A stretch of DNA of 64,000 nucleotides from Callorhinchus milii (Eukaryota), in contig NW_024704742.1 of assembly GCF_018977255.1 (NCBI RefSeq), positions 135,596,001-135,660,000 on the forward strand, read 5' to 3'. The translations under genes were made by a program, and so were the position numbers. Under the pieces are notes generated by a model. The model was not told the origin of the DNA. It searched no databases and saw only the letters and a program-made list of their open reading frames with translations. Below are positions 4,547 to 5,962 of the stretch, in pieces; position 1 is the stretch's first letter, and every line of letters begins with the position of its first letter.

Positions 4547-4779
4547 CAATAACAACGACGATGAGGACCTGACTCCGGAGCAGAAGGCCGAGCGTGAGCG
4601 CGAACGGAGGATGGCCAACAACGCACGGGAGCGACTGCGCGTGAGGGACATTAACGAGGCCTTCAAGGAGCTTGGCCGCATGGTCCAGCTTCACCTGAAG
4701 AGCGACAAACCCCAGACTAAACTGCTGATACTACATCAGGCCGTGGCTGTCATCCTCAGCCTGGAACAGCAAGTCCGAG
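4547..4779 (+). CDS. TCF4: TCF4 bHLH-domain exon
   Basis: cccag acceptor and G|gtgagg donor. Encodes [77 protein letters not shown], a class I (E-protein) b[11 protein letters not shown] and [12 protein letters not shown] fit TCF4 rather than TCF3 or TCF12. Confidence 0.98.
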
Positions 4780-4784
4780 GTGAG

Positions 4785-5962
4785 GGAGAGGGGGAGGCGG
4801 AGATAGAGAGGGGAAGAGATAGAAAGAGAGTGTGGAAGCGCAGGAGACAGAGTGACTGAGAGTGTGTGTGAGAGAGAGAGAGAGAGAGAGACAGACACAG
4901 GCAGATAGACAGACAACAAACAGACAGACAGACAGATAGACGGAGAGAGGGAGAGAGAGAGGGGCAGAGAGAGGATGGGATAGACAGGTCGTGAGACAGG
5001 CTGTGAGAAAGTGAGCGAGCGAGAGTCTGAATGTGTGAGCGAGAGAGAGAGAGAGAGAGGGGGAGTGTGAGAGGGAGAGACAGAGAGAGCGTGAGAGACG
5101 GTGTGTGTGAAAACGTATGTGAGGAAAGTGTGCGTGTGCGTGTGTGTGCGCGCGTGTGTGTGTGAGAGAGCGCGTTTGTGGGGTTTGTTGCTCTTCAGGT
5201 AAAGCTGGACCATGCGGCCAAGCTCCTTGAAGGCCTCGTTGATGTCCCACACGCACAGACACTCCCGTGCGTTGTTGGAGAGAGCGTGTGTGTGTGAGAG
5301 AGAGCATGTGTGTGTGTGTGTGTGTGAGAGAGAGCATGTGTGTGTGTGTGTGAGAGAGAGAGAGCTTATGTGTGAGAGAGCGTGTGTGAGAGTGTGTGTG
5401 TTTGTGCGTGAGAGAACATGTGTGTATGAGAGTGTGTGTGTGAGAAGCATGTGTGTGAGAGTGTGTGTGTTTGTGCGTGAGAGAACGTGTGTATGAGAGT
5501 GTGTGTGTGAGAAACGTGTGTGAGAGAGAGTGTGTGAGAGAGTGTGTGTGAGATGTGTGTGAGAAAGCATGTGTGTGACAGTGTGTGTATGAGAGTGCGT
5601 GTGAGTGTGTGCGTGTGAGAGAGCATGTGTGTGCGAGTGTGTGTGTGCGAGTGTGTGTGTGCGAGTGTGTGCGAGAGAGTGTGTGTGTGCGAGAGAGCAT
5701 GTGCGTGAGAGCGCGCGTGCGAGAGTGCGCGTGCGAGAGTGCGTGCGAGAGAGCATGCGCGTGAGAGTGCGCGTGTGAGAGTGAGAGCGTGAAGGTGAGA
5801 GTGTGAGTGAGCGAGCGAGCGTGAGCGCGTGAGAGTGCGCGAGAGTGAGTGCGTGTGAGAGTGCGCGAGAGCGAGCGAGTGAGCGCGTGAGAGTGCGCGA
5901 GAATGAGTGCGTGTGAGAGTGCGCGAGAGCGAGCGAGCGAGCGTGAGTGAGTGCGTGCGAGA
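4785..5962. repeat. Compound (GA)n/(GACA)n/(GT)n/(GC)n microsatellite field
   Basis: Low-complexity dinucleotide sequence. It explains the long His/Thr/Ser ORFs on the minus strand. Confidence 0.95.
5179..5278 (-). pseudogene. Inverted intronic copy of the TCF4 bHLH coding segment (copy of 4615-4714)
   Basis: The reverse complement aligns ungapped to 4615-4714 at 93/100 nt and translates as [32 protein letters not shown]. It is embedded in (GT/GA)n sequence. Confidence 0.93.

What the first reader, a model, noticed from the sequence alone, without database searches (positions are those of the whole stretch)
4615..5278. Inverted 100-bp copy of the TCF4 bHLH coding sequence in the downstream intron: a potential fold-back duplex over the DNA-binding exon
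Seen: 5179-5278 is the reverse complement of 4615-4714 (basic region, helix 1 and loop) at 93/100 identity with no gaps, 400 nt past the donor. In the pre-mRNA two of the 7 mismatches become G-U pairs, leaving 3 A-C and 2 A-A mismatches in a ~100-bp duplex that loops out the 5' splice site at 4780. Established: exon/intron duplexes of this geometry act as editing-complementary sequences for ADAR recoding (e.g. GRIA2 Q/R), and the paralogue TCF3 diversifies its bHLH through duplicated exons (E12/E47). Inference: this copy could allow A-to-I recoding or skipping of the bHLH exon. Caveat: 3 of the 7 differences are CpG transitions and the copy sits in a GT/GA microsatellite, which also fits a neutrally decaying template-switch duplication.
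Basis: partly seen in the sequence, partly recalled or inferred. Interest (0 to 1): 0.75.

Follow-up and report, generated by a model that had tools for sequence, protein, structure and literature searches.

The report
Backwards exon copy drives TCF4 editing
In the elephant shark, a backwards copy of part of the DNA-binding exon of the transcription factor gene TCF4 sits in the next intron, and public RNA data read G instead of A at several places on both copies, likely because the RNA folds back and is edited by ADAR enzymes, which would swap a normally fixed histidine for arginine in much of the protein.

Summary
Observation confirmed: 5179-5278 is a 93/100 inverted copy of 4615-4714 in the bHLH exon of Callorhinchus milii TCF4, present in an independent DNA-like run. 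The editing guess now has data. Eight A>G changes lie in the two arms. Exon arm: 4693 (His>Arg) is the only contig form in one RNA run, about two thirds of summed contig depth in a second study, and A in the DNA-like run; 4634 is minor and silent; a spliced UniRef entry implies 4644 (Arg>Gly) and 4665+4666 (Lys>Gly). Intron arm: 5230, 5231, 5255 in one RNA contig. The His equals E47 His576, a homodimer-only hydrogen bond; human TCF3 is edited there at 1-5%, while TCF4 was not found in that atlas. Best reading: a local copying accident made an editing-complementary sequence, and ADAR edits the duplex at several sites. No matched DNA/RNA exists, levels are rough, and a weak hairpin in the exon is a rival for 4693. 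Adaptive function, exon skipping and presence in a second species are not shown. The scan noted similar inverted copies before (seven genes in this genome, others elsewhere), mostly read as inert scars; this one has RNA evidence of recoding.

The parts
3162..3309 (+). TCF4 exon upstream of the bHLH exon; serves as the control without a duplex
   Evidence: 48/48 identical to C. milii TCF4; X1 contig has 0 other letters over 3160-3309, X7 contig one silent C>T at 3226
4547..4779 (+). TCF4 bHLH exon (233 nt, not a multiple of 3)
   Evidence: bHLH 58/58 identical to human TCF4 6od3; X1 contig joins 3309 to this exon, the 15 unaligned letters matching the masked 4547-4561
4615..4714 (+). Exon arm of the duplex (basic region, helix 1, start of loop); 27 adenosines, 24 of which would change the amino acid if read as G
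4693..4693 (+). Main A>G site: His to Arg (E47 His576; human TCF4 His598 by hand count). A-U pair with 5200, next to the C4692:A5201 mismatch
   Evidence: X1 245.2 of 245.2 (1 contig); X7 849.8 of 1263.1 (4 contigs); X3 0 of 8.2; numbering
4634..4634 (+). Minor silent A>G at an A:A mismatch
   Evidence: X7 85.9 of 922.2, 2 contigs; X1 0 of 245.2; G is also the base in organism B
4644..4644 (+). Inferred A>G at an A:A mismatch: Arg to Gly (human TCF4 R582, a Pitt-Hopkins residue)
   Evidence: protein P0124 has Gly; one A>G is the shortest path; the base change is inferred from the amino acid
4665..4666 (+). Inferred double A>G: Lys to Gly in helix 1
   Evidence: protein P0124 has Gly; two A>G is the shortest path; the base change is inferred
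4661..4700 (+). Weak hairpin of the exon alone, with A4693 in a 3-nt bulge (rival substrate)
   Evidence: -18.4 kcal/mol, z -1.41, 18 of 200 shuffles as good
4780..5178 (+). 5' splice site and GA-rich start of the intron, looped out by the duplex; an in-frame stop at 4857-4859 if the intron is read through
   Evidence: X1's main contig reads on from the exon to at least 4852
5179..5278 (-). Inverted copy of 4615-4714, the likely editing-complementary sequence; read as protein it has drifted at five conserved residues
   Evidence: present in X1 and X3
5230..5255 (+). Intron-arm A>G sites 5230, 5231 (A-U pairs) and 5255 (A:C mismatch)
   Evidence: X1 contig of 176 nt, depth 13.3; X3 0 of 13.4 at all three; only 5255 could be explained by the exon's own base
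5164..5175 (+). Left flank; 11 of 12 nt match 5278-5289, either a target-site-like repeat or a unit of the surrounding array
   Evidence: sequence; period-20 arrays on both sides
5188..5204 (+). Acceptor-like and donor-like motif (pyrimidines, AG, then GTAAAG; cut 5198/5199) inside the copy; use not shown
   Evidence: sequence only
5278..5962 (+). GT/GA micro- and minisatellite array to the right of the copy
6785..6926 (+). Last coding exon, stop at 6919-6921
   Evidence: 0 differences of 44 residues from P0124

Best explanation
A 100-nt piece of the TCF4 bHLH exon lies inverted in the next intron, likely put there by a local DNA copying accident; it is predicted to pair with the exon in the unspliced RNA, and ADAR likely edits adenosines on both arms, most strongly at 4693, which would turn the helix-1 histidine into arginine. 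Shown: the copy, its seven mismatches, and A>G changes confined to the arms in the single-copy records that were displayed. Inferred: (1) origin by template switching inside a GT/GA array; (2) the duplex forms before the 2-kb intron is removed; (3) ADAR deaminates several adenosines, so mature mRNAs are a mixture (His>Arg often, Arg>Gly and Lys>Gly in some molecules); (4) the His>Arg change alters the helix 1 to helix 2' contact that E-protein homodimers use and class II heterodimers do not, and is tolerated, since one animal group encodes Arg there; (5) the Gly changes are harmful by-products. I think the editing is more likely a tolerated by-product (about 70%) than a selected switch.
For: All 8 changes found in the arms are A>G on the transcribed strand. 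4693: G in RNA runs of two studies, A in the window, in DNA-like X3 (0 of 8.2) and in all six named C. milii proteins. Neither arm holds G there, so cross-mapping between the copies cannot give it; the same holds for 4634, 4644, 4665, 4666, 5230 and 5231. X1's 1543-nt contig has one difference in 441 aligned nt, inside the arm; 107 adenosines outside the arm are unchanged. After its alternative first exon, P0124 differs from the RefSeq protein P0126 at only two residues of about 484, both in the arm (chance about 0.005) and both reachable by A>G alone; it is spliced correctly on both sides of the exon. The three residues are fixed in other E-proteins: Arg 236 of 236, Lys or Arg 236 of 236, His 235 of 236 motifs, none with Gly or with Arg at the His. 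Editing of the intron arm as well is what long duplexes show (PMC8897444 sections 10 and 12). Elephant shark brain has abundant hyper-editing, 200,171 sites (PMC5625713 Table 1). The homologous His codon is edited to Arg at low level in human TCF3.
Against: No DNA and RNA from the same animal; the read tool warns that alleles look like editing. X3's A rests on one contig of depth 8.2, and contigs drop rare variants. Depth ratios of contigs are not editing levels. 125 rows of the difference table were hidden; 3 of the 6 differences in X1's intron contig were not shown, and X1 has only 7 listed A>G places (5 shown), so they need not be A>G. The intron-arm evidence is one contig from one run. G at 5255 equals the exon's complement and G at 4634 is organism B's base, so either may be an allele. 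The bases behind P0124 are inferred, and that this entry comes from a transcript is recalled, supported only by its spliced, alternative-start structure. The C-A-C context of 4693 is not the ADAR-preferred U-A-G (recalled). The exon alone folds a weak hairpin around 4693. Arg is encoded at this position in 16 of 80 metagenome E-protein loci, apparently one clade, so an allele is not absurd. Edits are not clearly enriched at mismatches (3 of 7 against 5 of 37, p 0.10).
Confidence: 0.75

Rival explanations
1. The His>Arg site is edited through the exon's own weak hairpin, as may happen in human TCF3; the inverted copy only adds scattered edits.
For: Without the copy, 4661-4700 folds into a hairpin with A4693 in a bulge. 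Related hairpins fold in the five closest metagenome loci. Human E47 and E12 are edited at this His at up to 1.3% and 4.8%; I did not look up their pairing partner.
Against: The hairpin is no better than shuffles (z -1.41) and far weaker than the long duplex (-18.4 against -196.6 kcal/mol). Human levels are a few percent, here G is the main form. TCF4 and TCF12 have 0 hits in the five atlas supplement files searched.
Confidence: 0.1
2. The G bases are DNA alleles and cDNA errors; the copy is an inert scar like the other inverted copies noted in this genome.
For: No matched DNA/RNA. Other alleles segregate in these runs (3226, 3335, 3497). Arg is tolerated at this position in one clade. The copy's changes fit ordinary decay: 3 of 7 at CpG (p 0.08), longest perfect run 39 nt (p 0.20). 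Earlier scan notes read seven other genes of this genome that way (unchecked).
Against: It needs eight independent A>G changes inside the arms, at three residues fixed in the other E-proteins, in three data sources, with different sites in each; the displayed alleles in single-copy contigs outside the arms are C>T or T>A.
Confidence: 0.08
3. The duplex mainly works on splicing: it delays or blocks use of the donor at 4780, giving intron retention (stop at 4857-4859, loss of the last coding exon) or exon skipping, and editing is secondary.
For: X1's main contig is spliced upstream but reads through the donor to at least 4852. Slow splicing and high editing go together for intronic ECS sites (PMC6724681 passages). 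The copy holds a donor-like motif at 5198/5199.
Against: Neither splice site lies inside the arms. P0124 is edited and spliced normally on both sides. Contigs cannot give splice ratios. No skipping joint among the 15 of 504 joints shown.
Confidence: 0.07

Closest known systems
ADAR recoding sites with an intronic editing-complementary sequence (GRIA2 Q/R, GRIK2, FLNB; PMC6724681 passages; ASNS in PMC8897444 section 12)
   Same: Exon pairs with the downstream intron; editing has to precede splicing; in ASNS an intronic A:C mismatch is edited with further sites near the exonic C, much as A4693 lies beside C4692:A5201.
   Different: Here the partner is a recognisable backwards copy of the exon itself, 100 bp long and 93% paired; at least five exon sites; the target is a transcription factor's DNA-binding domain; conservation and need are not shown.
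Coding-sequence editing clusters made by a reversely oriented paralog (CLDN9/CLDN6, TOR1B/TOR1A; PMC8897444 section 10)
   Same: The partner is a near-identical inverted copy of the coding sequence; clusters of sites; both arms edited.
   Different: There the partner is an exon of a neighbouring gene reached by a long 3' UTR; here it is a non-coding 100-nt fragment in the gene's own intron.
Human TCF3 recoding sites E47 H576R and E12 H579R (PMC8897444 Supplementary Data 2; H579R also in a table of PMC5355282)
   Same: Same residue and same change in a paralogous E-protein bHLH (maps the window His to E47 576).
   Different: Human levels peak at 1.3% and 4.8% and read 0 in the mouse rows seen; here G is the main form in two RNA runs, in TCF4, with a long dedicated duplex.
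Local inverted micro-duplications by template switching (mechanism recalled; earlier scan notes for PRAG1, CLNK, VAX2, MOB1B, SEL1L3, TEX261, TBC1D9 in this genome)
   Same: Short inverted copy of nearby single-copy sequence, set in repeats, with decay-like changes.
   Different: RNA data here show editing and recoding; the earlier notes reported none or had no RNA data.
TCF3 E12/E47 mutually exclusive bHLH exons
   Same: Duplicated bHLH coding sequence inside an E-protein gene.
   Different: Those are whole, same-strand, spliced exons with open frames; this copy is inverted, partial, lacks the exon's splice sites and has lost conserved residues.

Membership tests
ADAR recoding site with intronic ECS (GRIA2 type) | Exon and intron can form a long duplex in one pre-mRNA | tested here: met
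   (computed folds; z -12.7)
ADAR recoding site with intronic ECS (GRIA2 type) | RNA shows A>G on the transcribed strand inside the duplex, changing a codon | tested here: met
   4693 in X1 and X7; 4644 and 4665-4666 inferred from P0124
ADAR recoding site with intronic ECS (GRIA2 type) | The G is absent from DNA of the same individual | tested here: inconclusive
   A in the window and in DNA-like X3 (0 of 8.2), but these are not matched to the RNA runs
ADAR recoding site with intronic ECS (GRIA2 type) | The intronic arm is edited too | tested here: met
   5230, 5231, 5255 in one X1 contig, 0 of 13.4 in X3; three further differences hidden
ADAR recoding site with intronic ECS (GRIA2 type) | Site-selective editing of one isolated adenosine | tested here: not met
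   at least five exon sites, different ones in different records; 4693 dominates in the two runs
ADAR recoding site with intronic ECS (GRIA2 type) | Editing depends on ADAR and on the ECS | not testable with these tools
   needs a minigene or knock-down
ADAR recoding site with intronic ECS (GRIA2 type) | ECS and editing conserved across species | tested here: inconclusive
   organism B's contig breaks fit either its own copy or a paralog sharing a 30-nt word; no Gly variants among the best 120 of 631 short relatives
Inverted-paralog editing clusters (CLDN9/CLDN6, TOR1B/TOR1A) | Partner is a near-identical reversed copy of the coding sequence, both arms edited | tested here: met
Inverted-paralog editing clusters (CLDN9/CLDN6, TOR1B/TOR1A) | Partner is an exon of a neighbouring paralogous gene reached by an extended 3' UTR | tested here: not met
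   partner is a 100-nt fragment in the gene's own intron; no more of the exon is copied in the window
Template-switch inverted micro-duplication | Single-copy source close by, inverted | tested here: met
   464 nt apart; only single-copy pair of 48
Template-switch inverted micro-duplication | Microhomology at the junctions | tested here: inconclusive
   4 nt at the left (5174-5177 with 4719-4722) only if 3 nt were lost; about 1 nt at the right; flanks are array units
Template-switch inverted micro-duplication | Neutral decay of the copy | tested here: inconclusive
   5 of 7 differences at first codon positions, 3 at CpG (p 0.08), spacing not unusual (p 0.20, 0.08); no orthologous copy to compare
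TCF3 E12/E47-type duplicated exons | Same-strand, complete exon with splice sites and a conserved frame | tested here: not met
   inverted, 100 of 233 nt, five residues changed

The most novel reading that the evidence does not exclude
An inverted self-copy of the bHLH exon, older than the split of living chimaera lineages and kept under selection, is a purpose-built editing guide that lets ADAR switch TCF4 between His and Arg at the homodimer-only contact, tuning the balance of homodimers against ASCL1, NEUROD and ID heterodimers by tissue. It would be a vertebrate transcription factor recoded at high level in its dimerisation surface, with the birth of the editing guide still readable in the DNA.
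Probability: 0.2. Interest if true: 0.9.

Novelty: new variant of a known kind. Interest (0 to 1): 0.74.

Why it matters
High-level recoding is rare in vertebrates, and hyper-editing rarely falls in coding sequence (428 of 200,171 sites in elephant shark brain, PMC5625713 Table 1). Here it appears to hit the bHLH of TCF4, a dosage-sensitive gene whose bHLH is 58/58 identical between this fish and humans, at a dimer contact and at a residue mutated in Pitt-Hopkins syndrome. The origin of the editing partner is plain, so the open question of how new recoding sites arise and whether they are adaptive becomes testable with one minigene and a few chimaera genomes. The same His>Arg edit at low level in human TCF3 makes the variant worth a biochemical test. 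If local inverted copies are as common in this genome as earlier scan notes suggest, they may be a steady source of new recoding.

Tried and rejected
No whole genome is held for this window, so no genome-wide count or paralog check was possible. No look-alike stretch among earlier scan windows. Assembly artefact rejected. Cross-mapping between exon and copy rejected for seven of the eight sites; not for 5255. E12/E47-like alternative exon rejected. Exon skipping: the stretch laid ended at 5300 to keep out the long array, so 6785 was not covered; 15 of 504 joints and 24 of 2016 loose ends were shown, all in interspersed repeats; nothing can be said. X7 has no cover at 5172-5245 while it covers the upstream intron; a hole in contigs proves nothing. 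Contig depth cannot rank exons, so it was not used as a measure of skipping or retention. Organism B (X13, DNA-like, about 90% identical over 3103-3330): its exon contig ends at 4682 and depth 56 lies on about 35 nt of the copy's bin, covering 5230-5231 but not 5255; this fits a second copy, but 4653-4682 is exactly a 30-nt word ending before the Val/Cys codon, so a paralog would break the graph at the same place; 0 of 54 metagenome E-protein loci match C. milii's word exactly, 1 has one mismatch. Left open. Inverted copy near other E-protein bHLH exons: 0 of 80 metagenome loci, 62 with 600 nt or more downstream; many are distant animals or transcripts. A search with the Gly-bearing part of P0124 among short proteins found no other Gly variant in the best 120 of 631; it could not rank His>Arg variants. 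Paper searches showed no report of TCF4 editing in cartilaginous fish or of an ECS made from an inverted copy of its own exon; only listings and abstracts were seen for most hits, and the library lacks most subscription journals. Two supplement files of PMC8897444 were not searched and the two of PMC5625713 were not read; a site list there could bear on novelty. No structure or complex prediction was run; the His contact is taken from a review.

Full report
Observation. The repeat finder gives arms 4615-4714 and 5179-5278, 100 nt, 93% complementary, 464 nt apart; blastn scores the match at E 2e-38 with no other piece of the exon copied in the window. The RNA fold of 4550-5350 is dominated by this helix (-316.3 kcal/mol, z -12.7). 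In RNA the seven differences are three C:A, two A:A and two G-U; three are CpG transitions (the codon frame in my table was off by one and was corrected). It is the only pair with single-copy arms among 48 inverted pairs within 3 kb in the window.

Gene and organism. The exon 4547-4779 encodes a bHLH identical to human TCF4 over 58 residues, with the Val that the TCF4 entries carry where the E2A entries have Cys. The upstream exon matches four proteins named Callorhinchus milii TCF4 at 48/48. Read in the exon's frame, the copy has changed five conserved residues, and five of the seven differences are at first codon positions, so it is the copy that drifted. It interrupts a GT/GA array with a period-20 unit on both sides.

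The copy is real. Four runs were laid on 3100-5300, all as contigs. X3 behaves as DNA (contigs cross exon-intron borders at depth 4-9). It covers the right junction of the copy, and its exon contig stops at 4662, where a graph of 31-letter words must branch if both copies exist. X1 and X7 are labelled RNA only as a guess, but X1's main contig joins 3309 to the bHLH exon and X7's exon contig is about a hundred times deeper than its intron contigs.

RNA differs from DNA inside the arms. At 4693, X1 reads G (245.2 of 245.2, one contig) and X7, from another study, reads G in four contigs (849.8 of 1263.1); X3 reads A (0 of 8.2). This turns a His codon into Arg. At 4634, X7 has a minor silent G (85.9 of 922.2). 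On the intron arm, one X1 contig of depth 13.3 has six differences, of which three are shown, all A>G (5230, 5231, 5255); X3 has none at depth 13.4. X1's main contig has no other difference in 441 aligned nt, including 107 adenosines outside the arm. Separately, the UniRef entry P0124 (V9KSJ9; recalled as transcript-derived) differs from the RefSeq protein P0126, after its own first exon, at only two of about 484 residues: Arg>Gly at the codon starting 4644 and Lys>Gly at 4665, reachable by one and two A>G changes. It keeps the His and is spliced normally, so different molecules carry different edits and edits reach mature mRNA. Among 236 motifs in 205 other proteins (one had no motif), none has Gly at either site and none has Arg at the His.

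Limits of that evidence. No DNA is matched to the RNA. Contig depths are sums over overlapping contigs and give only a rough level. 125 rows of differences were hidden. G at 5255 equals the exon's complement, and G at 4634 is the base in organism B. Other alleles do segregate (3226, 3335, 3497). Edited sites are not significantly tied to mismatches (p 0.10). I still put real editing at about 0.9, because an allele reading needs eight A>G changes inside the arms, at residues fixed elsewhere, in three sources.

What the edits would do. By the numbering of a review (PMC8283981, passages and section 11 read) the His is E47 His576, which hydrogen-bonds to Glu600 of the partner's helix 2 in the homodimer, while in class II heterodimers Glu600 takes a Tyr of the partner. 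His>Arg would therefore act on homodimers first; the direction is unknown. One group of animal E-proteins encodes Arg there with the Glu kept (16 of 80 metagenome loci), so the change is likely tolerated. The Arg at 4644 is human R582, where a Pro substitution abolishes DNA binding and acts dominant-negatively in flies (PMC6895265, passages); the human numbers H598 and K589 are my hand count from that paper. 24 of the 27 adenosines in the exon arm would recode, so unselective editing should be costly. That the commonest edit is the mildest one fits either selection on the duplex or survival of a tolerable accident.

Rivals. The exon alone folds a weak hairpin with A4693 in a bulge (z -1.41), and human TCF3 is edited at the same His at up to 1.3% (E47) and 4.8% (E12) (PMC8897444, supplement rows; also a table row in PMC5355282). 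TCF4 and TCF12 had no hit in the five supplement files searched; two files were not searched. The site may be weakly editable in E-proteins generally and boosted here by the long duplex. On splicing, X1's main contig reads through the donor to at least 4852, a hint of slow removal of this intron, which would favour editing (PMC6724681, passages); ratios cannot be had from contigs, and skipping was not testable.

Origin and age. A single-copy source 464 nt away, inverted and set in an array, points to template switching (mechanism recalled). Junction microhomology is weak and the pattern of decay does not depart from chance. Earlier scan notes list similar copies in seven genes of this genome, read as scars (unchecked by me). 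None of 80 metagenome E-protein loci has such a copy. In organism B, about 10% diverged over the upstream exon and its flanks, the exon contig ends at 4682 and a 35-nt stretch at depth 56 lies on the copy. Its own inverted copy or a paralog sharing a 30-nt word would both do this. If B has the copy with an unchanged core, selection becomes likely; this is the key open test.

Comparison and novelty. It works like an intronic-ECS editing site but is not site-selective, so I do not file it with GRIA2-type sites. It is closest to the clusters made by inverted paralogs and to the ASNS case (PMC8897444 sections 10 and 12 read), differing in that the partner is a fragment of the same exon in its own intron. 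Elephant shark hyper-editing is known in bulk, with 428 of 200,171 sites in coding regions (PMC5625713, passages; supplements not read). A survey of 22 holozoans does not mention sharks or TCF4 in its main text (PMC9989829, passages). Eight searches showed no report of this locus. Verdict: a new variant of a known kind, interest 0.74; confidence 0.75 that the copy drives editing with recoding; 0.2 that it is an old, selected switch.

Noticed in passing
human TCF3 (PMC8897444 Supplementary Data 2): Both human TCF3 bHLH exons carry a low-level A-to-I site at the His homologous to window 4693 (H576R, H579R), not discussed in that paper's main text; one edited peptide detection is listed for the E12 site.
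   Followed up: partly
L050, L054-L063, L067-L070, L072: Sixteen metagenome E-protein loci, nearly identical in protein and apparently one animal group, encode Arg at the otherwise fixed helix-1 His while keeping the partner Glu.
   Followed up: partly
window 4780-4852: X1's main RNA contig is spliced upstream but continues into this intron instead of the last coding exon; why the spliced path was not taken is unexplained.
   Followed up: partly
window 5188-5204: The copy creates an acceptor-like stretch directly followed by a donor-like one (cut 5198/5199); its +2 U is the partner of the edited A4693 and its +3 A is one of the copy's changes.
   Followed up: no
proteins P0121-P0123, P0125: Four C. 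milii TCF4 database models replace the first half of the bHLH exon with intron-derived sequence and so lack most of the basic region; they look like annotation errors.
   Followed up: no
window 6927-7362: A likely intron in the 3' UTR just after the stop codon, judged from donor and acceptor motifs only.
   Followed up: no
window 2711-2937 and 2977-3119: A 31-nt minisatellite (7.3 copies, 92% matches) and a 23-nt one (6.4 copies) in the intron before exon 3162-3309.
   Followed up: no
whole window, e.g. 1851-1964 with 11053-11166; 57907-58084 with 59221-59396: A repeat family with about 35 copies in 64 kb forms many inverted pairs within 3 kb, a likely source of the bulk editing reported for this species.
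   Followed up: no
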